Shown here piece after piece: positions 824-38,693 of a stretch of 39,612 nucleotides of DNA; within the stretch, counting starts at the first letter, position 1, and every line of letters starts with the position of its first letter. Made by a program: the position numbers and the translations under genes. The DNA is from a virus (taxonomy: Duplodnaviria > Heunggongvirae > Uroviricota > Caudoviricetes). Below the pieces are notes generated by a model. It searched no databases. It worked only from the letters and a program-made list of their open reading frames with translations, and was not told the origin of the DNA. Location of the stretch: the IMG/VR virus record IMGVR_UViG_3300022758_000169; one strand, written 5' to 3'.

Positions 824-945
824 TAAAAAAACCACGTCTGGCGTGGTATGCGCCACTTAGTAACCCGGGACGCCAATCCCGGCACTGGATTTTGCCAGTG
901 CCCGATTACTATGGCACAAGAGGAGTGCGATGTAAATTTACCGAA
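824..945 (-). ncRNA. candidate structured antisense small RNA (c4-like), copy A
   Basis: Promoter TTGATT-N17-TATTAT on minus strand, predicted three-way-junction fold, hairpin loop UUGGCGU, terminator hairpin CCACG/CGTGG followed by U7; homologous to 38686..38806. Confidence 0.45.
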
Positions 946-952
946 AAGGTAA
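938..952. promoter_or_regulatory. operator-like palindrome TTACCGAAAAGGTAA
   Basis: TTACC-N5-GGTAA overlapping the predicted start of sRNA copy A. Confidence 0.5.
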
Positions 953-1099
953 TAATAGACGAAGATAAATATCAAAATCAACCATATTTGGTTAAGGTGT
1001 ATAAAAGAGCCACCAGCGAGAAATTGTACCGCGATGTAAAATAACGAGCATCTGCTGGCTTACAACCAGCGATGTTTCAAACTTGTCACTACTATCAAC

Positions 1100-1498
1100 G
1101 TGCCATTCCACGGCGTAGAACTTTATGTTGTCAATCACAACGGCGAACCGTACACCCCAATGAAACCTATCGTTGAGGGAATGGGTCTAGACTGGAAATC
1201 TCAACATAAGAAGATTTCTCAACGCTTCTCGAAGGGTATGGTGGAAATCACCATACCTTCTGCCGGAGGGGTGCAAGCCATGATTTGTATGGCTTTACGA
1301 AAATTGGCAGCTTGGTTGAACAGCATCAGTCCAAACAAAGTCCGCCCTGAAATCCGCGATAAGGTAATCCAGTATCAGGAAGAGTGTGATGATGTGCTCT
1401 ACGAGTACTGGACTAAAGGCCATGTGGTTAACCCGCGCAAAGCTAAAAAGGTGTTGCCGGGTAAAATCACGACTGAACAGCAGGAGGTATACACTTAA
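1100..1498 (+). CDS. antirepressor-like protein (recalled P22 antirepressor N-terminal domain pattern)
   Basis: ORF with motif GEPY...EGMGLDWKSQHKKI; divergent from sRNA/antirepressor copy A. Domain assignment from memory. Confidence 0.45.
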   Translation: MPFHGVELYVVNHNGEPYTPMKPIVEGMGLDWKSQHKKISQRFSKGMVEITIPSAGGVQAMICMALRKLAAWLNSISPNKVRPEIRDKVIQYQEECDDVLYEYWTKGHVVNPRKAKKVLPGKITTEQQEVYT

Positions 1499-1523
1499 CA
1501 CTTGATCACATTAGCACAAAATA

Positions 1524-1538
1524 TTACCTTTAAGGTAA
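1524..1538. promoter_or_regulatory. operator-like palindrome TTACCTTTAAGGTAA
   Basis: Perfect TTACC-N5-GGTAA about 20 bp upstream of the ORF at 1559; the same site and leader recur at 38586..38600. Confidence 0.5.
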
Positions 1539-1558
1539 TGTTATTGTGAGGAAAAGCA

Positions 1559-2086
1559 ATGGAAGTTTTCTTAATCATCGTCGGCATCGTGATTATTAAT
1601 TTTGTTTTTTTATTTATTGCAAAAAAACAAAAAAGTAACGATATGCATGTTTCTACAACTGATGATCTTACCTTTGTAGAGCATGCACTGAATGTATCAG
1701 GATATAAACTCACCCCATACGGAGCTGGTGTATCACTCATGTCTTTAAGTAACGGTTTTTCAAAAGAAGAAACATTTTCACATATAGCTTTGATGGCTCT
1801 TTCTCAACACGCCAAAGTCGCAGGTAGTGACGCAATTGAGCTTAGTAAAGTTAGCATTCGTGCGATGTCGATAGCTGAAAACTTAACTAAATTATTCAGG
1901 AAAGGTCTTATTCGATCAGAAATATATAAAAATGATTTGAATGCTATCATGGCTGTCAGCACAATTAATGAAAACCAAGAGGATTGGATTTCCATAGTTC
2001 TGGAAAGCAATAGCACATCTAACAAGGATACTATTGCTTTGCCGATAAGTGCAGAAGCTTCTTTAGAAGCCATAAACAGCCATTGA
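1559..2086 (+). CDS. membrane-anchored hypothetical protein (moron), AT-rich
   Basis: SD GAGGAAAA then ATG; N-terminus MEVFLIIVGIVIINFVFLFIA is a predicted TM helix; AT-rich codon usage; leader and first 13 nt of CDS shared with the gene at 37837..38565. Confidence 0.6.
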   Translation: MEVFLIIVGIVIINFVFLFIAKKQKSNDMHVSTTDDLTFVEHALNVSGYKLTPYGAGVSLMSLSNGFSKEETFSHIALMALSQHAKVAGSDAIELSKVSIRAMSIAENLTKLFRKGLIRSEIYKNDLNAIMAVSTINENQEDWISIVLESNSTSNKDTIALPISAEASLEAINSH

Positions 2087-2107
2087 AAGAACTCCAATAA
2101 ATATTGA

Positions 2108-4771
2108 TTAACGCATCACCGGATCCACTTGGTTTATTAGTGGCGCAATCCAGAACAGGTTATTGCCGGGTATCAGGGTTCGGACATTATGCACAATACG
2201 ATCACCGGCATCACCATTCAACACTCCTGAGGTCACATCAATGATGCTATCCGCAAGACCAAATGACGGTCCGAATAGAGATCCTACGAATCCACGACTG
2301 GCATACCTGGACTGTGTGCCAGTGCCAAATAAAGCCCCCAGCCCAACAGCACCACCAGTCGCCTTTTCAGCCATGTTGTTATATTCCATCAATGGCCCAA
2401 GAATACCGGATCTATCTATACCCTCAAGCACCAGCTTCTCTGGTGACCAGTCAACATTTTTCCCTTTCGATGCTTCTTTAAGCGCATAGACCAGTGAGCC
2501 AAGAGCAATCTGAAATGCAGTGCCATAATAAAATTGCGCAGTTCCTTCCTGTAACCCACCAAGTAGCGCACGGTTGTATGAAGCCGTTGTGAATGATTTA
2601 AACTGAAATATCGTTCGCCCCATTGGAGTACTCGCCCATAAAGGTGTGTCACCAATACCGGGGGTGATGATAGTGTTATTAACGTCTTTCAGAACCGCTG
2701 ACTGGAATACTCCGGCAACGTACTGATCGTCCCATTTATCAAAGTTACCAATGTGCCATCCATCAATTACCTCACCATGTTTCTCGAACTCACTGCGAAT
2801 ACGCGCAGCCATATTGTCGTTGATACCGAGTTTTGCCATGCGACGTGCAGAAAACGCACCGGACAAAATACCGTCTGACGTGAGCATTCCGTTCATGGAT
2901 TTGTTTATGTCATTAAATCGATCCATGAGTGTCAGCTTGCCGAAGGCATCAGTAATTCGCTCCATTCCTGCTTCGACTGCTGTTGTCCTGGAAGAACTGT
3001 CAACAAGATCACCAATTGCACGAGAACGTGAATGTAGTACAGCTTCCAATCCAATCCCCATCTTCAACATATCTTCTTTGCTGGCCTTAAATGCCGGTGA
3101 TTGGGATATCTGAGAAGCATAGCCTTTCATGGTGTTACGGAAACCATTAACCATAACCCCTCTGGCCAGATCTGGAATAGCTGATACTGTCATTCCACCG
3201 AGTTTGGTCGTGAAGTTCACATCCCGCAGAAAAGCGCCAGCACGAACAAAAAACGAAGACGGATCATCAGGCATCCCATATGTACCAACAAGACGATCGC
3301 GTAATGCTGTTATGTCTCTGAGATCATTTGCTCTTGATTTTGAAAGTCTGGACTGTTCTTTCCGTAATTCCTTTTCGTACTTTCGCATTAATGAATCGAG
3401 TTTACCCTGAGGAACAACTTCACCATTGCTCTCATAACGTGCTTTCAGATTTGCCACACTTTCGTCATATTTCGCCTTTATTTTTTCAGGCACTTCCCGT
3501 AACAGACTGTCATATTCGTCCTCAATTAATTGCAGACGCTCTGTCATAGTTCGTTTGCCAAATGTTCTCGTCAACTCAATTTCTGCTGCCGCTTCACGGA
3601 TATGACGTTGTAGAACGTAATTCACATCACTTTCGAGATAATCCCTGATAAGACTATCAGGCACATTTAATGTTCTTTCTTTCGTACTACCTGCGGCTTT
3701 TACAGAAAATACGCTGACAAAATCCTGTGGAACCTTAGCACCAGTAATTTTATTAATTACGATATCCGCTGCAATTTCAGCATCCTCAGGATCCAGTGTT
3801 TTATTGCCTCTCGACCACCAGTCAACCAAAATACGTCGAAATTTATCGCGTTCACTGATTATTTTTCCAACTTTATATATACGTGGGAAATAGCTTGCCT
3901 GGCCTAATGCTTTCAGTTCTTCATCTGGAGGCAATAAACCAAGCTTTTGCATTTCAACCTTCACCCGATTTAATACAGTTCGCATCGCCTGCGCCGTTTC
4001 CTGAACAACAGGATTAGCATGCACATCACCGCTTCGCATAGCATTCCCAACCTGCTGACGAAATGAATCAAAACTCATGTCACCACCATCAGCTTTATAC
4101 TTTGCGTATGCCTGTTTATTTCCGACAACAACAGCAGCTTCTTCACGCTGCCATCCACGTGTACGGGTTTCTACAGCTACCGGTGTTTCAATCCCCCTTT
4201 CATTTCCTTTAAGGGTGAAATTATTTTCGGCTAACTCCAGCGTTGTTTTTCGCACTGTCTTGGACGGAGACTCCATTAACCTTGTCAAAGGAGTAAGATA
4301 GCTCCCTGCTTTCCATGCAGCCTTTCCAACCACCCCACCGGAAACAGGGGTTAAATCATCCAGAGTCGCTGTATCAATTTTCATAGCACCAACACTACCA
4401 CCATCAGAAAGCGAAGCGGCAGCCCTGTCAGTCGCTGATGTAATGCTCATATTATCAAGAGCATCAGCAACCTCACGCGTGGCTGCAGCCCGGACGGATG
4501 GCGAAAGCGCAACACCAGCACTGGCAAACACGCCGCTCATCATCGCACCCGCTGCAATGTGAGCGGCACTTTCACCCCATGAGCGTGTTATTTGCTGATT
4601 ATTCAGCACAACCTCGCTTAATGCTGTACCGGCTGCACCAATCGCAATCTGTGAGCCAATACGCGCCAGTGCCCCTCCTTGAGCACCGGGGATAAACATT
4701 GACGCAACAGTAACCGGATCCATTCCCGCAGCAATACTGGCAAGGGTTCCAACTACGCCAGCATCAGACAA
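2108..4771 (-). CDS. large internal virion / ejection protein (887 aa)
   Basis: Long ORF at the distal end of the virion operon, Gly/Ala-rich N-terminus; position analogous to T7-like internal core proteins. Confidence 0.55.
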   Translation of the reverse strand: MSDAGVVGTLASIAAGMDPVTVASMFIPGAQGGALARIGSQIAIGAAGTALSEVVLNNQQITRSWGESAAHIAAGAMMSGVFASAGVALSPSVRAAATREVADALDNMSITSATDRAAASLSDGGSVGAMKIDTATLDDLTPVSGGVVGKAAWKAGSYLTPLTRLMESPSKTVRKTTLELAENNFTLKGNERGIETPVAVETRTRGWQREEAAVVVGNKQAYAKYKADGGDMSFDSFRQQVGNAMRSGDVHANPVVQETAQAMRTVLNRVKVEMQKLGLLPPDEELKALGQASYFPRIYKVGKIISERDKFRRILVDWWSRGNKTLDPEDAEIAADIVINKITGAKVPQDFVSVFSVKAAGSTKERTLNVPDSLIRDYLESDVNYVLQRHIREAAAEIELTRTFGKRTMTERLQLIEDEYDSLLREVPEKIKAKYDESVANLKARYESNGEVVPQGKLDSLMRKYEKELRKEQSRLSKSRANDLRDITALRDRLVGTYGMPDDPSSFFVRAGAFLRDVNFTTKLGGMTVSAIPDLARGVMVNGFRNTMKGYASQISQSPAFKASKEDMLKMGIGLEAVLHSRSRAIGDLVDSSSRTTAVEAGMERITDAFGKLTLMDRFNDINKSMNGMLTSDGILSGAFSARRMAKLGINDNMAARIRSEFEKHGEVIDGWHIGNFDKWDDQYVAGVFQSAVLKDVNNTIITPGIGDTPLWASTPMGRTIFQFKSFTTASYNRALLGGLQEGTAQFYYGTAFQIALGSLVYALKEASKGKNVDWSPEKLVLEGIDRSGILGPLMEYNNMAEKATGGAVGLGALFGTGTQSRYASRGFVGSLFGPSFGLADSIIDVTSGVLNGDAGDRIVHNVRTLIPGNNLFWIAPLINQVDPVMR

Positions 4772-4797
4772 TAAACGTCTGTCTTCATTTTCATCAT

Positions 4798-5127
4798 CTA
4801 TCTGCTGCTTAATCCACGCCGTTTCCTCTGGCGATCGGGAATCTGCAAATTTCGCCCCCAGTATTCATAACCGTGCAACTCATTTTTATCAGCATATGGG
4901 TTATAACCTTCGACCGGTTCAAACTGTCTGGCAGGACGGAAAAAACCAGCCAGAATATTGTTCTGTCGTATTGCTGCGGCAAGCAATGAAGGCTCTTTGG
5001 GACGAGGTTCAGGGTTCTTACCTTCTGGCGGATGCACATCAAAACTCTGTTCATCAGGTTCAGGAATGGCGAGACCAGCAGAAATAAATCCGTTATTGTT
5101 TGATTCAGATACAGGATAGAACGGCAT
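4798..5127 (-). CDS. small virion-operon protein, translationally coupled
   Basis: ATG overlaps the upstream stop in TAATG at 5129..5125; 109-aa Pro-rich ORF. Confidence 0.4.
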   Translation of the reverse strand: MPFYPVSESNNNGFISAGLAIPEPDEQSFDVHPPEGKNPEPRPKEPSLLAAAIRQNNILAGFFRPARQFEPVEGYNPYADKNELHGYEYWGRNLQIPDRQRKRRGLSSR

Positions 5128-16732: not shown

Positions 16733-16822
16733 ATCAATGACTCCGTACGCAATTAAATTATTACCAATTTAACCACATATGATTTATTTATCGTAGACAG
16801 TTGACATTTAACGCGCGAATTA

Positions 16823-16837
16823 TTACCTTTCAGGTAA
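16823..16837. promoter_or_regulatory. operator-like palindrome TTACCTTTCAGGTAA with TTGACA 17 bp upstream
   Basis: Perfect TTACC-N5-GGTAA; TTGACA at 16801..16806. Confidence 0.5.
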
Positions 16838-17159
16838 CCAAAGAGTTCATTCCGGTTACTAACCTGACTGGCTTGTCGTTAAATTGAACAGGTGGAGTGA
16901 GCTTTTATTTTGAGCAGTACGGCGTATGGCACATGCGCCGATAGCGGTCTGGATGCGTTTAAGGGGCACCCTCCCTGGCTGTGGCAAACGAACCAGGTAG
17001 CCGGAATGTGCAAGTCGAGCGGTTTTATTCCGCGCACGGGGATTCACCATCCCGGCGATTCGGTGTGACGCCTCGGAAGAGACGAGGGTACAACGATGAG
17101 AGCATTTATGGAGCCGCGACAAAGTGTGGCGCCTTAACAGGCTAAGTGCTCTCAGCGTT

Positions 17160-17236
17160 GTGGCATTAGCTCAGTTGGACAGAGCAACCGCCTTCTAAGC
17201 GGTTGGTCGCAGGTTCGAATCCTGCATGCCACGCCA
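17160..17236 (+). tRNA. tRNA-Arg (anticodon UCU), phage-encoded
   Basis: Manual cloverleaf: acceptor GTGGCAT/ATGCCAC, D-stem GCTC/GAGC, anticodon stem ACCGC/GCGGT with loop CTTCTAA, T-arm GCAGG-TTCGAAT-CCTGC, discriminator G, encoded CCA. Confidence 0.85.
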
Positions 17237-17398
17237 GAATCACGCCTAAGGACCGTGATGCCAGAAGTTCCAGGTGCTTGGCGGTGATGGTTTCCCTTGA
17301 AGGACTATCACCGCCCTTTTACAGCAGGACGCCATTGCGATGACTTCATGCTGTAAACCAGTACAGCCACGGAAGGCATAACTCATTGCTTCCAGTTC

Positions 17399-17421
17399 GC
17401 CCGGTTCGCCGGGCATTTTTT
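17399..17421 (+). terminator. intrinsic terminator or attenuator (UUCG tetraloop hairpin plus U6)
   Basis: GCCCGG-ttcg-CCGGGC followed by ATTTTTT, ending just before the SD of the ORF at 17434. Confidence 0.5.
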
Positions 17422-27463: not shown

Positions 27464-27471
27464 CGGTAACT

Positions 27472-29564: not shown

Positions 29565-29888
29565 AATCACGCCTGACGAATCGCGATTATCTCGCTATTG
29601 GTATTGCAGAGATTGCTGGACTCAATGGCGCATGATTTGACAATGCCGCCAGAGCTATCGCATACTGACCGCACTAGAAAACAAACAGCGGTCATCCGCA
29701 CCCGATAGCTTTGCGGCTTTTTTATGCCTGCAATCTGGCATAGTCACATCCGTACAAAGGTCGGGTGGAGAGGCGTAATACAACACCCGAAAGGGGAATA
29801 TGCCCGGAGCTACTGTTTGTGCTCTAGTTGACACCCGATCACCAGCTACTAACTGGTTTTCGTAACTAAAAACAAACAGGAGGTCATC

Positions 29889-30545
29889 ATGACCAGTCAA
29901 CTCATCCCCGTATTCAACGGCACTATATCTAACGAAACAGCCCTACTTTGTAATGCCCGCGATCTGCACGCTTTTTTAGGTGTTAAAAAGGTGTTTGCAG
30001 CATGGATTACAAATCGCATATCAGAATACGAATTCATTGAAAATCAAGACTATATTTTGCTTTCCAATTTGGGAAAGCAAACATCTGGTAGAGGCGGCCA
30101 CAACCGCAAAGAGTACCACCTCACCCTTGATACAGCCAAAGAGCTGGCGATGGTCGAGCGTAACGAAAAAGGTCGCCAGGTGCGACGCTACTTCATTGAA
30201 TGCGAGAAACGTTTAAGACAACAAGAAACAAAAGTGGAGAAGGTCTTGTCAGGCTTCATGCCCGCCATTATGGAGGCGATCAAGCTGGAAGACAAAAAAG
30301 AATACAGTGCCCCACTGAAGCCCGGCTACCGCAGCCTGATTCACTCGCCGTCTGGTGTTCTCGGCCTGACGGAGCACTCACTGCTGATGAATCTGCTGAA
30401 CCAGTTACAGGACGACGGGCACGACGTATCGGGCGCGGCGGCGGAGCTGACCACCATGTTCTGCTACATCGTCGGTGTGAGCAAATGCCTGCGTGATATC
30501 CAGACTCACGCGGAGTACATCAACGACAAGGCAGGGTTCTTCTGA
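29889..30545 (+). CDS. antirepressor (AntA/KilA-N-like N-terminal domain plus shared C-terminal module)
   Basis: Strong SD AGGAGG; C-terminal 68 aa nearly identical at DNA level to the two terminal copies. Confidence 0.7.
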
Positions 30546-30578: not shown

Positions 30579-31829
30579 TTATTCCCCCGCTATCCACTTC
30601 TCAAACTTCGACGGGGAGAACGGAATCAGATCTGTATGCTCCCCGTTAATCCAGGAATCAATCATATCGGCCCACTGCTGCAACATGTAGGCGCGCTGTC
30701 TGGCGTATTCCGCTTTGTTATATACGGCGCGCACACCTTTCTGCTCATGTGCCAGAGCCTTTTCAATCCAGTCTGAAGGATAACCAGCCTCATGCAACAA
30801 CGTACTGGCTGTACGGCGCATATCATGTACAGTGAAGTCCTGAATATGCTCACCATCTTCATTTATTATTTTCACCGTTCTGTCGATCAGAGAGTTCAGC
30901 GCGGCATTAGATAATGGCTTCCGGAAATTGTAACGACCAGGAACCAGATATTCACTTCCACCAGCGCACATCTGCAACCCGACCAATATATCCTGTGCCT
31001 GTTTAGGCAGGTAAATAACGTGCGCCCGGCTTCCCTTCATGCGGTCTGGAGGAATTGTCCATGTCCATTTTTTAAAATCTATTTCATCCCACGTTGCATT
31101 GGTGAATTCGCCCTTACGAACCATAGTGATAAGCACCAGTTTTAAAGCCATTTTCATAGTGCCCATAGCACCAATGGCATCCAGCGTACGGAAGAACAGG
31201 CCAATTTCTTCTGGTGTCAGTGTTCGCTCTCGTGGTTTAAATATGGCGATAGACGAAGGTTTAATGTCAGCCGCAGGATTAAACAAACCATGACCACGGT
31301 CATTGGCGTGACGGTATACGCTGCTGATGATCTCCCTTGCCTGTACTGCTGTTGCCCGACCACCGCGTTCGACAATCCGGTCACACAAATCACGAACCAT
31401 CGATGTGGTAATTTCAGCCATCATTTTGTTGCCAAGAACCGGAAGTATGTCACGGTCGATCACTGCCTGCTTCATTGCGCGGGTACTTTCAGCCAGGATG
31501 ACGTGTTTCATATAACTGTCGGTATGTACCGCAAACGTCTCGGCACCACGAATCTTTTTGATACCGTCACGTTTAGCCGCAGCCGGCGACTGGCCTGCTT
31601 TAAGCAGCTTCTTTGCAGCAATCAGTTCTTCTCGCGCTTCTGCCAGGCTGATACCGTCACGCCCATACTGCCCGATTACCAGTGTTTCGCGGCGACCGTT
31701 GATACGGTAGTCATAGCGAAACGAGGCCGTGCCTGACGTAAGCACAGCTACATACAGCCCGTCACGATCGGAGACCTTGTACAGTTTGTCCTGCGGCTTG
31801 AGGTTTTTTAATTTTGTATCGGTAAGCAC
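30579..31829 (-). CDS. int: tyrosine integrase
   Basis: 416-aa ORF; N-terminus MLTDTKLKNLKPQDKLYKVSDRDGLY; catalytic motifs HDMRRT and AVYNKAEY near the C-terminus; apparent GTG start. Confidence 0.85.
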   Translation of the reverse strand: MLTDTKLKNLKPQDKLYKVSDRDGLYVAVLTSGTASFRYDYRINGRRETLVIGQYGRDGISLAEAREELIAAKKLLKAGQSPAAAKRDGIKKIRGAETFAVHTDSYMKHVILAESTRAMKQAVIDRDILPVLGNKMMAEITTSMVRDLCDRIVERGGRATAVQAREIISSVYRHANDRGHGLFNPAADIKPSSIAIFKPRERTLTPEEIGLFFRTLDAIGAMGTMKMALKLVLITMVRKGEFTNATWDEIDFKKWTWTIPPDRMKGSRAHVIYLPKQAQDILVGLQMCAGGSEYLVPGRYNFRKPLSNAALNSLIDRTVKIINEDGEHIQDFTVHDMRRTASTLLHEAGYPSDWIEKALAHEQKGVRAVYNKAEYARQRAYMLQQWADMIDSWINGEHTDLIPFSPSKFEKWIAGE

Positions 31830-31871: not shown

Positions 31872-31886
31872 ATACCTTTAAGGTAA
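31872..31886. promoter_or_regulatory. operator-like palindrome (imperfect) ATACCTTTAAGGTAA upstream of int
   Basis: About 45 bp upstream of the integrase start. Confidence 0.4.
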
Positions 31887-31937: not shown

Positions 31938-31974
31938 TACATAAAAACAAAAACCCTCTGTAAAAACAGAGGGT
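31938..31974 (-). terminator. rho-independent terminator after the lysis cassette
   Basis: 9-bp stem AACCCTCTG/CAGAGGGTT followed by a U-rich tract on the minus strand. Confidence 0.55.
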
Positions 31975-32123
31975 TGAATTAGTATCTGAATAGGAATGAC
32001 TTGCTATGAGTTAGCTGTTAATCATTCCCACTCAATTATTTACGACAACCATAACCAATTGACTGATAACATTTTTCCAAACCTCAACTTTTCCCGTACC
32101 GTTTTATATACCGTCACCGGAAA

Positions 32124-32621: not shown

Positions 32622-33247
32622 ACCGCCAGTACCTTACTTGCTGTGATGTACCGCGCACGCCGGTCGTCGATACCGTTTCTGCCACCATTGATAATCAGAG
32701 TTACACGTACAATATCGCCGGTATACTTCATGCATCCTTTGCTGGCGAAGAACCACGCCGCGCTACGAGCCGCATATTCGTCCTGCGCCAGCAGTTCAGG
32801 GCTCTCCAGCAGGTCAACCTTCAGACCGTTTCCGCAATCACGATAGTTATTCAAACCGGTAATCTGGATAAGTCCGCGCCCTCGGTAATTCCAGCCATCA
32901 CCAGGGGCATTGTTCCCCATGCGTTTGCTGTATACCAGATTTGCGATCGCGCGCTGGCGCTCAAGTGGCAATGGTGGTTCACCAGCACGGCGCCCCAGTG
33001 CATTAGCCTGCCCCTGAGTGAGACGCCCAGCCCGAACGAAGTTAGCCAGTCCGCTGACACTGTAGTTGAAATTCTCCTGCAACCTGGTGAAGCTCCCAGA
33101 CTCATGCCCGACTTGAGCAATAAACATTGCCTGATCTTCTGCTTTGCTGATACCAAACTCTTTCATCGCAGAAGTTATATGCGAGAACCAGCGTGCGGCC
33201 AGTGCCTCGCTGATACCAGCAGCTCGCTGGAATTGTTTAATCTCCAT
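32618..33247 (-). CDS. endolysin, glycoside hydrolase family 19-like
   Basis: Start MEIKQFQ at 33247; motifs [10 protein letters not shown] and [11 protein letters not shown]. Confidence 0.75.
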
Positions 33248-33545: not shown

Positions 33546-33936
33546 CGTCTTTTCTCCCCGGAATTAACTCGCGTGGATTATCGGAACGGTGATAGAGCCA
33601 TATACCAATACGCACAGCGACAATTGCTGACACGAATGCGCCTGCAGAGAAAACAATCCCTTTTTCAAAAGAGTCCTGCGTGATGGTAGGGATCAGGCTG
33701 GCTATGCCGATAAGAATTGATGCTGCTGGTTTGTAAAAGAGAAGGCCACAAAGAAAGCTGAGCATCGAAAGGAGCACCCGGCGACGGATGGGGTACTCTA
33801 CTGCAGAGGTAACAAAAATTACCGCCCCAGCCAAAGCCCCTAAAGCAACCTCCGGAGGGACACCTGCAATAACCGCAGCAAGAGAACCAAAACTAAGCAA
33901 CTGATTTAATTGCTCACTTGTTACTTGAGCAGACAT
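33532..33936 (-). CDS. holin candidate
   Basis: SD AGGAGAAAG; 134-aa ORF with several predicted TM helices; first gene of the lysis cassette. Confidence 0.55.
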   Translation of the reverse strand: MSAQVTSEQLNQLLSFGSLAAVIAGVPPEVALGALAGAVIFVTSAVEYPIRRRVLLSMLSFLCGLLFYKPAASILIGIASLIPTITQDSFEKGIVFSAGAFVSAIVAVRIGIWLYHRSDNPRELIPGRKDDGNA

Positions 33937-34217
33937 ACTTTCTCCTGTTTACTATCTATAAGCCAGTCAATTATTGATGACTAACCCCGCATAGTAAACC
34001 ATATATGAATCATTATTGTTCCATATCATATATCTCAATAAAAGTACTAATGATTTTACAGAACGAGCCAGCAGAGTGGGGGCAGTTGTACAGGAACCAT
34101 AGACTTAATTTTGTATTTAATAATGCTATGGTGTAATAAACCTGAACATGTATTTAAAATACGTACTGATTCATGATAGAATTCAAAGATAACTTTTCAC
34201 CAACTCCGTTTTTGATA

Positions 34218-34244
34218 CCCGCAATATTTTGCGGGCTTTTTTTT
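34218..34244 (+). terminator. plus-strand intrinsic terminator with no annotated upstream plus-strand gene
   Basis: CCCGCAA-uauu-UUGCGGG followed by U8; overlaps the tailspike stop codon on the other strand. Confidence 0.45.
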
Positions 34245-37200
34245 AACGTTCTTCCAGAGACTGAACCCGCTCTTTTATCTTATCCATTTCTCTGCGCTGC
34301 CATGCTGCCTCGATATAGAATAAGAGATCAGGTCTGACCCCCCATCTAGATCCTGCTGGCGTTATTTCAACGCGCTCAATGATGTCTTCTATTACCATCA
34401 CTGGATTATCATCCTCATCAACAATGATGCTCCCGTCATTATCAGTCAGCGGCATTTCCCTTTGGCCAGTAATGACGTCATCATATACTGCGGGATAATC
34501 GTCATAGCAAAGAAAGGCATAGCGGCATGTTGTGCTTTCTTCTTCCATGAGTCCGTGAGAAATAAGAACATCACGAAGTTGCTGCGCGATTACACCATGA
34601 TGTATCCTCGCCCCTTCTTCCCCCTTTATAGCGACAGCGTTCAGCCATTTATAAGCGATATACCTGACGTCACCCCAGGCATCCAGCAATGCTTCGTCAG
34701 GAGAGACCGGCTCTGTCTTTAATGTTCCGTCACTGGTAACCACAGGATTGGAGCCAAGATAAACTGTCGAGAACCTGTTTCCCGGACCACCAAGAGCATT
34801 TACATTATCAAGATAAGGTTTAACATCTCCGTTCTCAAAAAGATGTTCGAGTGCGTTATATACCGCGCGACGTGGAGTACTGCTTCCGGAACCATGCAAC
34901 GTTATCATTGCACCATCTGCTGAAGACGTTGTTTCACCGCCGCTAACGATTAATCTCTGAGCGGTAACATCATCAGACGGTACTTTCTTCGCAATAATGG
35001 CGTAATTACCCTCAAGTTTGACTTCCGCGCGAACTTGTCCTGATGTACCTGCATGGACAGTCAGTGACTGGACGGCAACATCATCTGTGAAATCAACGGG
35101 TACAGGAACCGTCCTCACGCCTGACGTCGACATAAAAGTAGGAAGCGTTCTGTTAGGAGTGGCTCCGTAGACAAAATCCCTTGAAACAAATTCTTCCTGT
35201 TTAATTTTCACCCTGAAACAATACAAATCAGCCGGGTGACCATCGTGAACATAAGGATATTTTCTGTTGTTATCCCCTATGCTCCATGGGTTTAGAAAGT
35301 CTTCCCCACCGAAAATGTAGTACAGCCAGTTGTCTTTGATACAAACTGAACCAACACCAACCGCAGAGTTAACTATTCCGCCCTGATAAATCTGATCAGT
35401 AACATTAACCCACTCTACATTATCCAGACTCCACTCATTGACGTTAACTCTGGTCATAAATGTTCTTGGATAATTTCCTGCATAACGGTTATCAGGTTCT
35501 CCTCCTTCCCACTCACCAAATGCGCGCTCACTGCCAAAAATAATCAGCTCATCGCCAACTTTGGCAAAAGGAAGGTTTGAGTGATGAACATTATTTGGGA
35601 AGCGAAGAGAATTCCATGATGTACCTAAATCAGAGCTTCTGTGCAATGAACTACCGGGTTGAGTACTTAATGTCCCCCTGGTCGTCAGATACAGAATGCC
35701 ATCATAATATTTTACACATGGCTCAGATGCATTCGCCTCATATTCTGCAGGTATGCGTCTGCGAACAAAGCTACCAGGAGAACCGAAAGCATCAGAGAAA
35801 TAGAGTATCCCAAGCTCGCGTGGACCAATATCACCATTATGGTAGCCAACAGCAAAACTGTTATCGCTAATCGTCGCAAAACTGTGAATCTCAGTAACAG
35901 GAGTGCTTCCGTCAACAAAAGAAGGAATAGTTCCAAGACTGGTTTTTCTCCATGGTGACGAGTGAAATGATGTACCAAAACTCCAGTATCTACCCTCGTT
36001 ATTCTGATCCACATCCTGGGTATTTTGCGTCGTAACTGTAAAAGTATTTTTATCAATAACAGTAGTCACCGTCATATTCCCGGTAACACCTGTAACACCA
36101 GAGTTTGAGAAGTTGACAAAATCACCAGCAAATAATCCGTGATCAGTAATGCGAATATAAGCGACTTGCTGATTTGCTGCTTTCGTTATACCACCATAAA
36201 CGCGAAGGCTGCGACTCATTGGGCGATCCCACAACTCTGCAACCTGCAGTTTATTTCCGCTCACGGTCCGCGTCTCAATTACAGCAAAAAGGCGATTTCT
36301 GACAACCCCCATACTCATGCAGTGATAGTTAACTGTGGGATAGTTTTCATGTAAATCTGTAAGCCATTCCGGCGTTGTCCAGGTCTTCCCGTCATCTCCT
36401 GAGCGAACCCATGCAACATGGAGGTTATTTACACCATGGCGGTCTCCAGCCATAAAAGGCGCATAGATGACATTGTCATATACAAACGTTTTATCCTGCG
36501 TCCAGGCGTTGTACCACGGTGTATCTGTAATTTTAAATAACTCTCCCTGGATAAAATCTTCAGAAGCATAAAAAAGAGGCTGACCCGGTATTCTCTCAAA
36601 TAAAAAACGAGCATTTTTAAATCGACTGACATCCGGAAGAGTTGATACTTTAAAAGTAAGCCCTAATCCGTCAATTTTATAACCTGGAGATGAGGCTTCA
36701 AGGCACGCGCTTATTGCAGTGGAATCGTCATTTATACCATCACCAACAGCTCCAAAATCTTTGGGGCTAATAGCATCACGCATTTTATCCTGGAACGTTC
36801 GGTACACAGCCCCAGAACCATACTGAATAAACCAACCAAAACCACCAACAACCCCGGCGATTGCAGCATCGACATAATTACGCATTGAGCGATTATTTAC
36901 AGCGTCCTGCTCAAATGATGGATCTGCAAGGTTAGAAATTTTGTTTTGCTTTGCATCGTAATATTTTGCAAGCAAAGATGGTTTCATCAATGCACGTCTG
37001 AACCACCCAAAACATTGCTGGATCAGCATCGTCAGGTAGTCAAAGGCATCTTCATGCACTTCGGGGAAAAATTTTCCCTGATTGCGAAGGTCTGTCTCCT
37101 GCACTACATCAAGCACACGATCTATCGTAATTCGCCATCCAGTAGCAAGCGGAGACGGAAGAACCACAGAACCGCCACTATAAGTGCCCGCCCCAGTTAC

Positions 37201-37362
37201 CGTATAACCGGTATCCAGAACCAATTCTGTTACGTTTCCGTTCAGGTCAGACACCTGAACAACCAGGTCTGATTTTCTGAAAATTCGAAAAGTATACGGA
37301 AACGATGTCGTAACGCCGTTACCGGTGTATTCGTTGTGGTCAACTTCGGTTGAGACCGTCAT
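34243..37362 (-). CDS. tailspike with Asp-box (BNR) motifs and C-terminal self-cleaving chaperone-like domain
   Basis: 1039 aa; N-terminus MTVSTEVDHNEYTGNGVTTSFPYTF; Asp-boxes SGDDGKTW and SDLGTSW; C-terminal VVTSDGTLK with the Ser codon at 34732..34734. Confidence 0.8.
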   Translation of the reverse strand: MTVSTEVDHNEYTGNGVTTSFPYTFRIFRKSDLVVQVSDLNGNVTELVLDTGYTVTGAGTYSGGSVVLPSPLATGWRITIDRVLDVVQETDLRNQGKFFPEVHEDAFDYLTMLIQQCFGWFRRALMKPSLLAKYYDAKQNKISNLADPSFEQDAVNNRSMRNYVDAAIAGVVGGFGWFIQYGSGAVYRTFQDKMRDAISPKDFGAVGDGINDDSTAISACLEASSPGYKIDGLGLTFKVSTLPDVSRFKNARFLFERIPGQPLFYASEDFIQGELFKITDTPWYNAWTQDKTFVYDNVIYAPFMAGDRHGVNNLHVAWVRSGDDGKTWTTPEWLTDLHENYPTVNYHCMSMGVVRNRLFAVIETRTVSGNKLQVAELWDRPMSRSLRVYGGITKAANQQVAYIRITDHGLFAGDFVNFSNSGVTGVTGNMTVTTVIDKNTFTVTTQNTQDVDQNNEGRYWSFGTSFHSSPWRKTSLGTIPSFVDGSTPVTEIHSFATISDNSFAVGYHNGDIGPRELGILYFSDAFGSPGSFVRRRIPAEYEANASEPCVKYYDGILYLTTRGTLSTQPGSSLHRSSDLGTSWNSLRFPNNVHHSNLPFAKVGDELIIFGSERAFGEWEGGEPDNRYAGNYPRTFMTRVNVNEWSLDNVEWVNVTDQIYQGGIVNSAVGVGSVCIKDNWLYYIFGGEDFLNPWSIGDNNRKYPYVHDGHPADLYCFRVKIKQEEFVSRDFVYGATPNRTLPTFMSTSGVRTVPVPVDFTDDVAVQSLTVHAGTSGQVRAEVKLEGNYAIIAKKVPSDDVTAQRLIVSGGETTSSADGAMITLHGSGSSTPRRAVYNALEHLFENGDVKPYLDNVNALGGPGNRFSTVYLGSNPVVTSDGTLKTEPVSPDEALLDAWGDVRYIAYKWLNAVAIKGEEGARIHHGVIAQQLRDVLISHGLMEEESTTCRYAFLCYDDYPAVYDDVITGQREMPLTDNDGSIIVDEDDNPVMVIEDIIERVEITPAGSRWGVRPDLLFYIEAAWQRREMDKIKERVQSLEER

Positions 37363-37466
37363 GTTAAATCTCCAGATAGTCGCAGCACCCGTTGCGCCGC
37401 ATATCTGGTTATTCTATTACCTGGAAAACCACATATGGATAGAAAGGCTGTAAATACGAATAGATA

Positions 37467-37481
37467 TTACCTTTCAGGTAA
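37467..37481. promoter_or_regulatory. operator-like palindrome TTACCTTTCAGGTAA
   Basis: In the divergent intergenic region between the tailspike start and the ORF at 37557. Confidence 0.5.
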
Positions 37482-37556
37482 TTTGCAAAACGTGCTGGAT
37501 AGCAAACAAATTATTTGATACTGTATAAATATCAGTTATTGCATGGAGAAGATAAG

Positions 37557-37814
37557 ATGCAGCAGTATCACTATCCACTGGAAGACGGATTTACCGAAAG
37601 GATTCACACGCCGGGAGGCGTCAGGTCACTGGTGGAGGGATCGCACTTGATGAAATTACTCCGGGATCTCGATAAGGATGGATTTAATGTCGATGGCCCA
37701 CTTGCCGAACTGACTGCACTGATTAACTACGTCACCAGCTCACAGATGTCTATGCAGGATCTGCAAACACATCTCGACTATTGTGCCGAACAATTACGAA
37801 AACAAACCCGGTAA
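37557..37814 (+). CDS. hypothetical protein (85 aa)
   Basis: SD GGAGAAG then ATG; convergent with the gene at 37837..38565. Confidence 0.45.
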   Translation: MQQYHYPLEDGFTERIHTPGGVRSLVEGSHLMKLLRDLDKDGFNVDGPLAELTALINYVTSSQMSMQDLQTHLDYCAEQLRKQTR

Positions 37815-37820
37815 ATTTAA

Positions 37821-37838
37821 AGGCCGCAAGAGCGGCCT
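37821..37838. terminator. hairpin between convergent genes
   Basis: AGGCCGC-aaga-GCGGCCT. Confidence 0.35.
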
Positions 37839-38565
37839 ATCGTTTCGCTTTGTGCTCGTCCCAGCACGTTTTGCACCATGCCATTAAGCCGTCCGCATTT
37901 TGATTATTAGGGTAAAAGCTGGTCCGTTTTCTGCGGACATTACAAATTGGGCACCACTTCATATGGCGTGTATTCTTTGGGCCATCGAGACACCTTGCAC
38001 ACCACTTAGTCAATCCATCTGGATTTTTTGACGATTTCCGGAATTTGTCATATGGAAGGTTTATTCTGCATCGCAAACACTGCTTGCGGCCACTTGAAAC
38101 TCTGTTAGCTGATTCTTCTTTTGGCGGCGATACAGAAGGTATTCTTGCTGGCTCTGATACTGCCTGAGGTGCTTTTTTAGATGACTGAGACGATATGTCA
38201 TCACCAGGGAATCTTCCATGATATGCCGGACGCGTTGACACTCCAGGTGGAAGCTCAGCTGTAAACGGCTTTGGCTGAATCAGTTGCCTCTCTTTTGCTA
38301 ACTCCTGCTGTTTATAATATGTCTGGATTACCGCACTATCATAAGCAGGAGGTACGGAAATATCAGGCGCGTTACCTCCAGTTTTTTGAAAATGAGTAGA
38401 TGTGTGTTCTATCACCTGTGTACGACTAATCGTTACCTCCCCATCTTCGGTCTTTATCGTTTTGTTCTGATTAACGACCGTACGATCAGAGATCTTAGTC
38501 TTGTTCTGGTTGATAACGTAAATAATCACCGCAACCACACCAACAACTATCCAGAAAACTTCCAT
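37837..38565 (-). CDS. membrane-anchored protein with C-terminal double Cys4 repeats (moron)
   Basis: N-terminus MEVFWIVVGVVAVIIYVI is a predicted TM helix; C-terminal repeats CLRC...WCARC and CPIC...WCKTC; promoter, leader and start shared with the ORF at 1559. Confidence 0.55.
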   Translation of the reverse strand: MEVFWIVVGVVAVIIYVINQNKTKISDRTVVNQNKTIKTEDGEVTISRTQVIEHTSTHFQKTGGNAPDISVPPAYDSAVIQTYYKQQELAKERQLIQPKPFTAELPPGVSTRPAYHGRFPGDDISSQSSKKAPQAVSEPARIPSVSPPKEESANRVSSGRKQCLRCRINLPYDKFRKSSKNPDGLTKWCARCLDGPKNTRHMKWCPICNVRRKRTSFYPNNQNADGLMAWCKTCWDEHKAKR

Positions 38566-38585
38566 TGCTTTTCCTCACAATAACA

Positions 38586-38600
38586 TTACCTTAAAGGTAA
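38586..38600. promoter_or_regulatory. operator-like palindrome TTACCTTAAAGGTAA
   Basis: Upstream of the minus-strand gene at 38565; mirror of the site at 1524..1538. Confidence 0.5.
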
Positions 38601-38678
38601 TATCTTGCTTTCAGGTGATCAAGCGTTAAACGCAATCAACCAAATACGGTTGATTTTAATATTTCTTCGCGTTTATCA

Positions 38679-38693
38679 TTACCTTTGCGGTAA
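38679..38693. promoter_or_regulatory. operator-like palindrome TTACCTTTGCGGTAA overlapping the sRNA promoter
   Basis: Promoter TTGATT (38651..38656) - N17 - TATCAT (38674..38679); the site covers the predicted start. Confidence 0.5.

What the first reader, a model, noticed from the sequence alone, without database searches (positions are those of the whole stretch)
938..38693. The same palindrome is dispersed at about a dozen other intergenic promoters
Outside the switch region, TTACC-N5-GGTAA or a one-mismatch variant occurs at 938, 1524, 16823, 22660, 22722, 24624, 25724, 25786, 31872, 37467, 38586 and 38679. Every copy is intergenic and most overlap or flank a recognisable sigma70-like promoter: upstream of both sRNA/antirepressor modules, both membrane morons, the tRNA/moron cassette, the DUF1064 operon, the PL-like recombination operon, int, and the tailspike region. 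A single dimeric regulator therefore appears to control immunity, morons, integrase and parts of the late region together, a dispersed-operator design reminiscent of the P1 C1 regulon rather than lambda. Whether these are all targets of the 25083..25667 protein is an inference.
Basis: partly seen in the sequence, partly recalled or inferred. Interest (0 to 1): 0.8.

Follow-up and report, generated by a model that had tools for sequence, protein, structure and literature searches.

The report
Dispersed repressor operators of ε15-like phage
The repeated palindrome TTACC-N5-GGTAA is real and is almost certainly the binding site of this ε15/φV10-type phage's repressor, scattered in front of nearly every transcription unit, but the same dispersed sites are already annotated in the type phage ε15, so this is a correct re-discovery, not a new system.

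Summary
Observation confirmed. TTACC-N5-GGTAA occurs 12 times exactly (0.01 expected) and 16 times at ≤1 mismatch (0.77 expected). It occurs only at spacing 5 and only in non-coding DNA.

The window is a near-complete Uetakevirus (ε15/φV10-like) genome. The ORF at 25083-25667 is a full-length homologue of the crystallised SPC32H repressor Rep (PDB 5D50).

The GenBank record of ε15 already annotates seven dispersed copies of the same palindrome as repressor-binding sites, upstream of terS, the portal operon, the tailspike, PL and RuvC. All 12 Rep-encoding genomes I examined (E. coli, Salmonella, Enterobacter, Klebsiella, Serratia; Rep identity down to 42%) carry the motif at the same syntenic positions. 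The half-sites are invariant while spacers and flanks drift. A Rep-less control phage has none.

- It missed the operator pair in front of terS (19968, 19986).
- Four of its 12 sites are two duplicated pairs.
- Rep acts as a tetramer, not a dimer.
- The P1 likeness is one of design (dispersed operators; antirepressor under both repressor and C4 RNA), not homology.

Direct binding at the outlying sites is still unproven. Verdict: already known, low to moderate interest.

The parts
25083..25667 (+). rep: prophage repressor with an N-terminal HTH (recognition helix ...QANLVNRW), a second HTH_3-like domain and no S24 peptidase domain
   Evidence: PDB 5D50_A SPC32H Repressor, E=4.5e-42 over residues 1-190. 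Pfam HTH_3 only. phrog_8. 98.5% identical to the ZX5 ORF21 repressor, whose overexpression abolished free phage.
24962..25026 (.). Switch region between the cro-like gene and rep. Three operators: 24962-24976 (TCACC..GGTAA, 1 mismatch), 24994-25008 (2 mismatches), 25012-25026 (exact). They overlap two leftward promoter-like sites: TTGTTA-17-TATTAT at 24979-24951 and TTAAAA-18-TAAAAT at 25038-25009.
   Evidence: the triple arrangement is conserved in 7 genomes
25724..25800 (+). PL region. The distal operator 25724-25738 lies just after the rep terminator (25688-25707). The promoter is TTGACA-17-AATTAT (25758-25786). The proximal operator 25786-25800 starts on the last base of the -10. Centre-to-centre distance is 62 bp.
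   Evidence: the 62-bp spacing is invariant in 7 genomes and 63 bp in the Klebsiella phage
24624..24638 (-). Operator with a conserved one-mismatch variant (GTACC on the transcribed strand), directly after the cro terminator (24672-24653) and ahead of the replication-gene unit.
   Evidence: φV10 annotates a terminator at 33078-33100 just before its copy at 33112.
22660..22736 (-). Operator pair, 62 bp apart, ahead of the DUF1064 / Holliday-junction-resolvase-like gene (22312-22656). Operator 22722-22736 fills the spacer of TCGATA-16-TAAAAT (22743-22716). Operator 22660-22674 covers the ribosome-binding site, 3 nt from the ATG.
19968..20000 (-). Operator pair 18 bp apart (19986-20000 exact; 19968-19982 one mismatch). 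It lies between a terminator (20037-20020) and the terS start (ATG at 19965). The proximal operator contains the terS RBS.
   Evidence: ε15 annotates its copy (12-27) as a repressor site.
16823..16837 (.). Operator 91 bp upstream of the gp3-like/portal late operon (- strand). It overlaps the -10 of a conserved rightward promoter TTGACA(16801)-17-TACCTT that faces tRNA-Arg (17160-17236).
   Evidence: ε15 copy 2931-2947 is annotated as a repressor site.
37467..37481 (.). Operator in the divergent region between the tailspike (34243-37362, -) and the SPC32H-type antirepressor gene.
   Evidence: ε15 copy 19895-19911 is annotated as a repressor site.
37557..37814 (+). ant: small SPC32H-type antirepressor (85 aa). 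A LexA-like box TACTGTATAAATATCAGTTA (37519-37538) lies over its putative -10.
   Evidence: PDB 5D50_E Anti-repressor protein, E=4e-47; sequence inspection
31872..31886 (-). Operator variant 43 bp upstream of int (30579-31829). The single mismatch (GGTAT) is conserved in all genomes examined and creates a TATACT -10-like hexamer.
938..952 (-). Operator between tandem leftward promoters. The P1-like promoter TTGATT-18-TATTAT (981-952) has its -10 abutting the operator. The P2-like promoter TTTACA-17-CATAGT (936-908) has its -35 abutting the operator, and its predicted start coincides with the isrK 5' end (901).
3..901 (-). Left immI-like module: isrK (901-825), C4 antisense RNA (800-717) and a Bro-N antirepressor (668-3, running off the contig end).
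   Evidence: Rfam RF01394 67.7 bits and RF01695 66 bits; Pfam Bro-N
38679..38693 (+). Duplicate of the 938 operator, with the same tandem promoters (38650-38679 and 38695-38723).
38730..39612 (+). Right immI-like module: isrK (38730-38806), C4 (38825-38912) and a second Bro-N antirepressor (from 38961) that is frameshifted and runs off the contig end.
1524..1538 (+). Operator at +2..+16 after the -10 of TTAACA-16-CAAAAT (1495-1522), upstream of a 175-aa protein with an N-terminal TM helix (1559-2086).
38586..38600 (-). Duplicate of the 1524 operator, upstream of a 242-aa protein with an N-terminal TM helix and a C-terminal Cys-rich region (37837-38565). It lies 93 bp from operator 38679.
24694..24924 (-). 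Cro-like small HTH protein gene (orthologue of ε15 gp39 / φV10 p41), a possible second reader of the same operators. In this window it carries a +1 G frameshift.
   Evidence: phrog_35

Best explanation
The 15-17-bp palindrome (a)TTACC-N5-GGTAA(t) is the operator of the phage's SPC32H/ε15-type repressor Rep (25083-25667). Rep's N-terminal helix-turn-helix domains read the two TTACC half-sites.

Instead of controlling only two early promoters and leaving the rest to an antitermination cascade as in lambda, this phage family is split into short transcription units. Several of them begin right after an intrinsic terminator, and most carry their own operator(s) placed in one of four ways:
(i) starting on the last base of the -10, so that the operator covers the transcription start (PL, tRNA promoter, isrK P1, TM-protein genes);
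(ii) filling the -35/-10 spacer (PR, DUF1064 promoter);
(iii) over the ribosome-binding site (terS, DUF1064);
(iv) about 62 bp upstream as a partner site (PL).

In the lysogen, Rep therefore directly silences early, recombination, replication, integrase, accessory, antirepressor and packaging/late units. This is a flat regulon.

Rep has no autocleavage domain. Induction comes from antirepressors: a small LexA-box-preceded Ant, plus Bro-N antirepressors held down by C4/isrK antisense RNA and by a Rep operator.

Shown here: motif enrichment, position, conservation, homology of Rep and Ant, and co-occurrence of Rep with the motif.
Taken from others' annotation or literature: that Rep binds this sequence and acts as a tetramer.
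Inferred: that every outlying copy is occupied and repressive.
For: - Enrichment and spacing specificity.
- Non-coding location.
- Reproducible operator-promoter geometries.
- Rep is homologous to PDB 5D50_A and Ant to 5D50_E. Rep has no S24 domain.
- The ε15 GenBank features call seven dispersed copies of the same sequence repressor-binding sites.
- SPC32H itself has the motif at the same places.
- Phylogenetic footprint over 10 orthologous site classes in 7 genomes: half-site columns 0.90-1.00 identity, spacer about 0.67, flanks 0.45-0.9.
- The motif is present at syntenic sites in all 12 Rep-encoding genomes examined, down to 42% Rep identity, including Klebsiella and Serratia.
- 80 of 80 IMG/VR Rep loci have 3-5 exact copies within about ±4 kb.
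- Control phage CUS-3 (no Rep) has 0 exact and 0 one-mismatch copies; host flanks have 0 exact and one 1-mismatch copy.
- The recognition helix N-L-[VI]-[NS]-R-W is conserved.
- ZX5 (Rep 98.5% identical): Rep overexpression cut endolysin and holin transcripts by more than 99.9% and abolished free phage.
- Rep is a tetramer with a looping-type tetramerisation domain, which fits the operator pairs with invariant 62-bp spacing.
Against: - There are no binding or expression data for this phage or for any outlying site. The primary ε15 and SPC32H papers could not be read here, so I cannot say which sites were tested experimentally.
- No convincing σ70 promoter is visible at the terS, int and tailspike sites, so what Rep would block there is unclear.
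- The lysis cassette in this window has no site at ≤2 mismatches, so the regulon is not complete.
- The covariation test was uninformative because the operator never varies.
- The Cro-like protein is equally conserved and could be the relevant reader at some sites.
Confidence: 0.85

Rival explanations
1. The sites are shared operators. They are read by Rep in the lysogen and also by the small Cro-like HTH protein during lytic growth. The dispersed copies would then mainly serve temporal shut-down or tuning of early and accessory units by Cro. This would make it a two-regulator regulon, not a single-regulator one.
For: - The cro-like gene is divergent from rep across the triple operator, as in lambdoid switches.
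- Its HTH segment AGTTSHYIQTHLTG is near-invariant across E. coli, Enterobacter and Salmonella phages, with one conservative change (T→V) in the Klebsiella phage. It is more conserved than Rep, matching the invariant operator.
Against: - No data exist on what the Cro-like protein binds.
- In this window its gene is frameshifted.
- A separate conserved palindrome, CTGAAATAAATATCAG (24935-24950), next to its promoter could be its own site.
Confidence: 0.35
2. At some promoters bound Rep is an activator or a neutral anchor, not a repressor. This would apply to operators abutting or upstream of a -35: the isrK P2 promoter, PRM, and the -62 sites at PL and Pant. In the lysogen Rep would then keep C4/isrK RNA and its own gene ON, or loop DNA through its tetramer.
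For: - The operator at 938/38679 ends 1 bp from the -35 of the promoter whose predicted start equals the isrK 5' end, placing its centre near -44, like lambda CI at PRM.
- Upstream operators lie at -62..-48 relative to the -10 end at PL and at a hand-called Pant.
- Rep has a looping-type tetramerisation domain.
Against: - This rests purely on geometry, and promoter calls are weak evidence: genome-wide, promoter-like hits are no more frequent than in shuffles.
- The same operator also covers the start of the upstream tandem promoter, which is a classical repression position.
Confidence: 0.25
3. The outlying copies are not functional operators. They would be relics or 'boundary sequences' that mark recombination joints between exchangeable modules, or a repressor sink that merely buffers free Rep.
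For: - Several copies sit exactly at module joints. The operator-ATG junction is kept while the downstream gene switches between RuvC and DUF1064, independently of Rep phylogeny.
- The copies travel with duplicated modules.
Against: - The half-sites are under strong purifying selection at every site class over Rep divergence down to 42%.
- Positions relative to -10, -35 and RBS are precise and recurrent.
- The conserved single-mismatch variants (int GGTAT, post-cro GTACC, OR TCACC/GGTGA) look like tuned affinities, not decay.
Confidence: 0.08
4. The palindromes act as RNA hairpins (terminators, attenuators, processing sites) or as targets of a restriction-modification or methylase activity, not as protein operators.
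For: - They are perfect inverted repeats.
- The phage family encodes adenine methylases.
- ε15 annotators marked RNase III sites nearby.
Against: - The predicted RNA hairpins are weak (-1 to -7 kcal/mol, 5-bp core stem) and lack U-tracts.
- None is called by the terminator scan, whereas real terminators lie next to them.
- The loop sequence is free to vary but the stem never shows compensatory changes.
- Sites occur in both orientations relative to transcription.
- Ten specified bases is far longer than known R-M sites, and such sites would be avoided, not enriched and confined to intergenic DNA.
Confidence: 0.02

Closest known systems
Salmonella phage ε15 repressor (gp38) and its annotated operators (GenBank AY150271.2; Kropinski et al. 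2007, Virology 369:234, not readable here)
   Same: - Same genus (Uetakevirus) and same genome architecture.
- Identical palindrome ATTACC-N5-GGTAAT.
- ε15 annotates it as 'protein_bind repressor' upstream of terS, the gp3/portal operon, the tailspike, three times downstream of rep at the head of the PL recombination operon, and before RuvC. The window has sites at the orthologous positions.
   Different: - The Reps are only 42% identical.
- The window adds sites the ε15 record does not annotate or lacks: int variant, post-cro site, second DUF1064 site, isrK-C4-Bro-N modules and TM-protein genes.
- The window lacks the lysis/O-antigen-conversion site that ε15 has at 24704.
Salmonella phage SPC32H/SPN1S Rep-Ant switch (Kim & Ryu 2013 J Virol; Kim et al. 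2016 PNAS; PDB 5D50, 5D4Z)
   Same: - Rep (E=4.5e-42) and Ant (E=4e-47, about 87% identical) are both present.
- Rep lacks an autocleavage domain.
- A LexA-like box precedes ant.
- SPC32H carries the same palindrome at the same positions.
- Rep is a tetramer with paired DNA-binding domains.
   Different: The window has additional antirepressor layers that are absent from SPC32H: two Bro-N modules with C4/isrK RNAs, an AntA-domain protein and a P22-type Ant fragment. The LexA box has one mismatch to CTGT-N8-ACAG.
Bacteriophage P1 C1 regulon and tripartite immunity (immC/immI/immT)
   Same: - Many repressor operators are dispersed over the genome: 22 in P1.
- An antirepressor operon is controlled both by the primary repressor and by C4 antisense RNA. 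Here there are Rfam C4 hits plus an adjacent operator.
- Induction proceeds via antirepressors, not repressor cleavage.
   Different: - No homology: the PDB and Pfam searches with Rep returned only SPC32H Rep and generic HTH families.
- The P1 operator is an asymmetric 17-mer, ATTGCTCTAATAAATTT. Here the operator is a strict palindrome bound by paired HTH domains of a tetramer.
- P1 C1 controls late genes indirectly via Lpa. Here operators sit directly in front of the packaging, portal and tailspike units.
Lambda/P22 CI-Cro switch
   Same: - Divergent rep and cro-like genes flank a triple operator.
- An operator pair lies at a leftward recombination operon.
- The operators are palindromic and HTH-read, with graded-affinity variants.
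   Different: - No S24 peptidase domain.
- Operators are not confined to OL/OR.
- No N- or Q-type antiterminator was noticed.
- Units are separated by terminators, each followed by its own operator.

Membership tests
ε15/SPC32H-type (Uetakevirus) Rep-operator immunity system | Repressor homologous to SPC32H Rep / ε15 gp38: an N-terminal HTH plus a second HTH-like C-terminal tetramerisation/Ant-binding domain, with no S24 peptidase | tested here: met
   5D50_A E=4.5e-42 over residues 1-190; Pfam HTH_3 only; aligned with ε15, SPN1S, Tyrion and φV10 Reps
ε15/SPC32H-type (Uetakevirus) Rep-operator immunity system | Operator is the palindrome ATTACC-N5-GGTAAT | tested here: met
   The window consensus a-TTACC-tywra-GGTAA-t is identical to the sequences annotated as repressor sites in ε15.
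ε15/SPC32H-type (Uetakevirus) Rep-operator immunity system | Operators dispersed at the syntenic positions annotated in ε15 (terS, gp3/portal, tailspike, PL, RuvC/DUF1064), plus a cluster between rep and cro | tested here: met
ε15/SPC32H-type (Uetakevirus) Rep-operator immunity system | Small antirepressor Ant, LexA-controlled, next to the tailspike gene | tested here: met
   5D50_E E=4e-47. A LexA-like box with one mismatch overlaps the putative -10. LexA control itself was not testable.
ε15/SPC32H-type (Uetakevirus) Rep-operator immunity system | Rep physically binds the sites and represses the adjacent promoters | not testable with these tools
   Only indirect support: co-occurrence of Rep and motif, the negative control and the ZX5 overexpression phenotype.
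Bacteriophage P1 C1 regulon | Repressor homologous to P1 C1 | tested here: not met
   Rep matches only SPC32H Rep in the PDB and HTH_3/HTH_26 in Pfam. Nothing P1-like appeared among the phage tblastn hits.
Bacteriophage P1 C1 regulon | Asymmetric 17-bp operator ATTGCTCTAATAAATTT | tested here: not met
   The operator here is a symmetric TTACC-N5-GGTAA. The P1 consensus is taken from PMC8546580.
Bacteriophage P1 C1 regulon | Many operators dispersed genome-wide, and an antirepressor operon under both the primary repressor and C4 antisense RNA | tested here: met
   There are 17 sites in 10 intergenic regions. Rfam C4 and isrK lie downstream of operator-flanked promoters and upstream of Bro-N antirepressors. 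This is a functional analogy only.
Lambda-type CI/Cro switch | RecA-stimulated autocleaving repressor (S24 domain) and operators restricted to OL/OR, with late genes reached by antitermination | tested here: not met
   There is no S24 domain and the operators are dispersed. Terminators followed by operators separate the units. N/Q homologues were not searched for systematically.

The most novel reading that the evidence does not exclude
Because one operator is wired into 13 or more promoters, operator specificity in this phage family is evolutionarily frozen. TTACC-N5-GGTAA is unchanged across Reps that have diverged to 42% identity, in phages of at least five enterobacterial genera. Immunity specificity and induction control would therefore have shifted to a changing set of antirepressors (LexA-controlled Ant, C4/isrK-gated Bro-N, AntA), as in P1/P7. 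If so, all Uetakevirus prophages would cross-repress one another. The family would also be a naturally 'flat' lysogeny regulon in which the repressor directly locks the packaging, portal and tailspike units with no activator or antiterminator cascade, using tetramer bridging of operators held at an invariant 62-bp spacing.
Probability: 0.35. Interest if true: 0.5.

Novelty: already known. Interest (0 to 1): 0.22.

Why it matters
It matters mainly as a correct annotation. It identifies the repressor, its operator and about 17 sites in an ε15/φV10-type E. coli phage whose close relatives' records (φV10, ZX5, TL-2011b) annotate none of these sites and whose closest relative HEMP4 has no annotation at all. 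These phages are used for O157 detection and are common as prophages: at least 267 related loci were found in IMG/VR.

The comparative result gives specialists two testable predictions:
- broad cross-immunity within the genus;
- direct repressor control of late units.

It rests on an invariant operator across highly diverged repressors, a conserved 62-bp operator phasing, and a terminator-operator unit structure. None of this overturns current understanding.

Tried and rejected
1. Chance or composition: rejected by shuffles, the spacing scan and the Rep-less control phage CUS-3, which has 0 sites.

2. RNA hairpin or terminator: weak folds with no U-tract, and none is called by the terminator scan.

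3. LexA sites: only four loose CTG[TA]-N8-[TA]CAG matches, none at the palindromes. The real LexA-like box is at 37519-37538, next to ant.

4. Covariation between the Rep recognition helix and the operator:
- The IMG/VR scan returned only 98-100% identical Reps.
- The protein search found helix variants NLVSRW, NLISRW and NLINRW.
- Their contigs carry the unchanged palindrome.
The test is therefore uninformative for assignment, though it does show the specificity is frozen.

5. Reading the primary papers failed. Kropinski 2007, Kim & Ryu 2013, Kim 2016 and Łobocka 2004 are not held. A sequence-string literature search was useless. I therefore relied on the ε15 GenBank features and on secondary descriptions.

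6. I first took 29889-30545 for the adenine methylase by synteny. Pfam shows it is an AntA antirepressor.

7. Treating the window as a closed circle: rejected, because both ends stop inside inverted copies of one module.

Full report
**1. The observation**

A search for TTACC-N5-GGTAA finds 12 exact copies, where dinucleotide-preserving shuffles give 0.01. At ≤1 mismatch there are 16 copies, where 0.77 are expected.

All 12 coordinates in the finding are correct: ten are exact, and 24624 and 31872 are one-mismatch variants. The remaining hits are:

The arrangement is specific. There are 12 copies at spacing 5 and 0-1 at every other spacing from 0 to 20, and none to speak of in everted or direct orientation. 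An unbiased count of all 5-mer inverted pairs ranks TTACC-N5 first. The symmetrised consensus is a-TTACC-t-y-w-r-a-GGTAA-t, with A/T-rich flanks.

Against a deliberately inclusive ORF set covering 90% of the window, 11 of 17 sites lie outside every ORF. The other six lie only in ORFs that are evidently spurious: ones that overlap Rfam RNAs, a terminator or antisense strands, plus the N-terminal over-extension of terS that ε15, ZX5 and TL-2011b do not annotate.

One caveat on independence. The window's two ends are inverted copies of one another (1-431 vs 39182-39612, 858-993 vs 38638-38773, 1495-1584 vs 38540-38629). So 938≈38679 and 1524≈38586 are paralogous pairs.

**2. What the window is**

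The window is 97-98% identical over long stretches to Escherichia phages HEMP4, vB_EcoP_ZX5, TL-2011b and φV10, and about 77% identical to Salmonella phage ε15 in the structural genes. It is a Uetakevirus. Gene order is that of ε15 read backwards.

The ORF at 25083-25667 aligns over residues 1-190 with the crystallised repressor of Salmonella phage SPC32H (PDB 5D50 chain A, E=4.5e-42). It has HTH_3 as its only significant Pfam family and no S24 peptidase domain.

The ORF at 37557-37814 is the SPC32H antirepressor Ant (5D50 chain E, E=4e-47). It is preceded by a LexA-like box, TACTGTATAAATATCAGTTA.

ZX5's repressor is 98.5% identical to the window's. The ZX5 paper reports that overexpressing it abolished free phage and cut endolysin and holin transcripts by more than 99.9% (PMC9782041).

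**3. It is already annotated in the type phage**

The GenBank record of ε15 (AY150271.2) carries seven 'protein_bind' features with bound moiety 'repressor' and note 'lysogeny':
- at 12-27, before terS;
- at 2931-2947, before gp3/portal;
- at 19895-19911, between gp19 and the tailspike;
- at 32479-, 32554- and 32616-, downstream of the repressor gene at the head of the recombination operon;
- at 35906-35922, before RuvC.

Their sequences are all ATTACC-N5-GGTAAT. The dispersed-operator idea is therefore not new. From memory, the accompanying paper (Kropinski et al. 2007) gives a degenerate consensus of this form, but I could not open it.

**4. Comparative evidence gathered here**

The motif is present at ≤1 mismatch 14-18 times in each of ε15, φV10, ZX5, Tyrion (Enterobacter), SPN1S and TL-2011b. 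It is also present in SPC32H itself and in Klebsiella phage BUCT711, whose Rep is 45% identical.

The positions are syntenic:
- a pair 18 bp apart between a terminator and terS;
- one site about 90 bp before gp3;
- one site between ant and the tailspike;
- a conserved variant (…GGTAT) before int;
- a pair exactly 62 bp apart around PL;
- a triple site between rep and cro;
- a conserved variant (GTACC…) just after the cro terminator;
- a pair exactly 62 bp apart before DUF1064/RuvC.

I anchored on ten orthologous site classes in seven genomes. Half-site columns are 0.90-1.00 identical, the five spacer columns average about 0.67, and flanks are 0.45-0.9. That is a protein-binding footprint and not general conservation.

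The single-mismatch variants are themselves conserved. The int variant creates a TATACT -10-like hexamer. This suggests tuned affinities.

Rep's putative recognition helix (…NLVNRW) is invariant between Reps 43% identical.

I looked for covariation using more distant homologues (52-64% identity) with helices NLVSRW, NLISRW and NLINRW. Their contigs include a Serratia prophage and E. coli prophages integrated next to guaA. They still have TTACC-N5-GGTAA as the top palindrome at the same places. The operator simply never varies, so this test cannot discriminate. It does extend co-occurrence to 12 of 12 genomes.

All 80 IMG/VR loci retrieved with Rep have 3-5 exact copies within about ±4 kb. A P22-like E. 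coli phage without this Rep (CUS-3, 40 kb) has none even at one mismatch. The host DNA flanking three prophages has no exact copy and a single 1-mismatch copy.

**5. Anatomy and likely mechanism**

Promoter-like hexamers are not enriched genome-wide, but their register with the operators is strikingly regular.

(i) The operator's first T is the last base of a -10 hexamer, so the operator covers the start site. This holds at:
- PL (TTGACA-17-AATTAT, 25758-25786; operator 25786);
- the promoter facing tRNA-Arg (16794/16801; operator 16823);
- the upstream isrK promoter (981-952 / 38650-38679);
- within 2 bp, the promoter of the 175-aa TM protein (1495-1522; operator 1524).

(ii) The operator fills the -35/-10 spacer at the DUF1064 promoter (22743-22716; operator 22722) and at the rightward switch promoters (25012, 24962).

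(iii) The operator overlies the ribosome-binding site 3 nt from the start codon at DUF1064 (22660) and terS (19968).

(iv) A partner operator lies at -62..-48 from the -10 end at PL, and also at a hand-called ant promoter.

Four operators lie within about 10-20 bp downstream of intrinsic terminators:
- the rep terminator 25688-25707 precedes operator 25724;
- the cro terminator 24672-24653 precedes operator 24638;
- the terminator 20037-20020 precedes operator 20000;
- φV10 annotates a terminator just before its DUF1064 site.

So the 'early right operon' is really a chain of terminator-bounded units, each with its own operator. I did not notice an N/Q-type antiterminator. The simplest reading is a flat regulon: in the lysogen Rep directly silences every unit.

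Secondary sources report that SPC32H Rep binds DNA as a tetramer, whereas the dimer binds weakly. Its DNA-binding pairs come from different dimers, and Ant dismantles the tetramer (PMC9638917). Its tetramerisation domain resembles those of DNA-looping regulators (PMC9986798). A tetramer can hold two palindromes, which fits the operator pairs. It also fits the invariance of the 62-bp (about six helical turns) spacing at two different promoters in eight genomes, despite sequence drift in between. So 'dimeric regulator' should read 'tetramer'.

Rep has no cleavage domain, so induction must go through antirepressors. This window has several:
- the LexA-box Ant;
- two Bro-N proteins;
- an AntA-domain protein (29889-30545);
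- a P22/CUS-3-type Ant fragment (1100-1498).

**6. The P1 comparison**

Rfam finds isrK followed by C4 antisense RNA twice: at 901-825/800-717 on the minus strand and at 38730-38806/38825-38912 on the plus strand. In each case the RNAs lie upstream of a Bro-N antirepressor and downstream of tandem promoters that bracket an operator. The predicted start of the second promoter coincides with the Rfam 5' end of isrK.

In P1, C1 binds 22 dispersed operators with an asymmetric 17-bp consensus (PMC8546580). Ant synthesis in P1 is controlled by C1 and by C4 RNA (PMC8201110).

It is analogy only. Rep is unrelated to C1 by the searches run, the operator is a strict palindrome, and here operators sit directly before late units, whereas P1 C1 acts on late genes through Lpa.

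**7. Rivals**

- Dual use of the operators by the Cro-like protein is plausible, since its HTH is near-invariant genus-wide, but it is untested.
- Activation, not repression, at promoters where the operator abuts the -35 (isrK P2, PRM) cannot be excluded.
- 'Relic / boundary sequence' and 'repressor sink' readings are disfavoured by the strength and precision of the conservation.
- Hairpin/terminator and R-M readings are effectively excluded.

**8. What remains unproven**

There are no binding or transcription data for any outlying site in this phage. I could not check which sites were tested in ε15 or SPC32H. No σ70 promoter is visible at terS, int or the tailspike side of 37467. The lysis cassette of this window (and of ZX5) has no site, although ε15 has an exact one at 24704 and φV10, Tyrion, SPN1S and SPC32H have 1-mismatch TCACC variants there.

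**9. Verdict**

It needs three corrections: tetramer not dimer, duplicated sites, and analogy (not homology) to P1.

It re-discovers what the ε15 record already annotates. The novelty rating is 'already known', and the interest is low to moderate.

The most novel reading still open is that the many-promoter wiring has frozen operator specificity across the whole family. That would imply genus-wide cross-immunity and would shift specificity to antirepressors.

Noticed in passing
window 1-1584 and 38540-39612: The two ends of the window are inverted, diverged copies (81-98% identity by segment) of one module: operator/promoter, then isrK, C4 and a Bro-N antirepressor. This module is single-copy in HEMP4, ZX5, TL-2011b and φV10. 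The left copy is HEMP4-like (98.8%) and the right copy is TL-2011b-like (93%). Both ends stop at the same homologous base, about 43 nt before the Bro-N stop codon. That looks like an assembly break inside an inverted repeat, so the window is not a closed genome and a short piece between two convergent Bro-N genes is missing.
   Followed up: partly
window 24694-24924 (- strand), about 24861: The cro-like gene has one extra G (GAGCGTGGAAGCC) relative to ZX5, φV10 and HEMP4, which frameshifts it after about codon 21. Only a 63-aa TTG-initiated ORF remains. This is either a sequencing error or an inactivating mutation in a prophage.
   Followed up: partly
window 38961-39612 (+ strand), about 39160: The right-hand Bro-N antirepressor gene is frameshifted: the N-terminal 66 aa are in one frame and the rest in another. 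The left-hand copy (668-3) is intact.
   Followed up: no
window 29637-30545: At the position where relatives have PerC/methylase genes there is an AntA-domain antirepressor (29889-30545, Pfam PF08346). Its last 213 nt (30290-30502) are 96% identical to the 3' parts of both Bro-N antirepressor genes, so they share a C-terminal domain. It is preceded by an Rfam sRNA-Xcc1 hit (29759-29848) and a near-consensus promoter, TTGACA-18-CATACT (29637-29666). There is no Rep operator nearby.
   Followed up: partly
window 24935-24950: A second conserved palindrome, CTGATATTTATTTCAG, lies between the PR -10 and the cro-like start codon. It is present in the E. coli phages and Tyrion. It resembles a LexA box but both halves deviate (CTGA…TCAG). 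Its function is unknown; it could be the Cro-like protein's own site.
   Followed up: no
window 22656-22674 versus ε15 (L001) 35969-35986 and Tyrion (L004) 37327-37344: The junction operator-'atc'-ATG is conserved while the gene behind it alternates between DUF1064 (E. coli phages, SPN1S) and RuvC (ε15, Tyrion). This alternation is independent of Rep phylogeny, so the operator marks a recombination joint between modules.
   Followed up: partly
window 16801-17414: A conserved promoter (TTGACA-17-TACCTT) whose -10 is the operator half-site points at tRNA-Arg(UCU) (17160-17236), followed by a terminator (17399-17414). The rare-codon tRNA would therefore be repressor-controlled and lytic-phase specific.
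   Followed up: no
window 33937-34243: There is no operator (≤2 mismatches) upstream of the lysis cassette in this window or in ZX5. ε15 has an exact site and φV10, Tyrion, SPN1S and SPC32H have a TCACC variant there, in the divergent region shared with O-antigen-modification genes, which this phage lacks.
   Followed up: partly
loci L091 and L093 (E. coli prophages): Rep-family prophages are integrated immediately next to guaA/guaB. This matches the attB at the 3' end of guaA reported for ZX5, φV10 and ε15.
   Followed up: no
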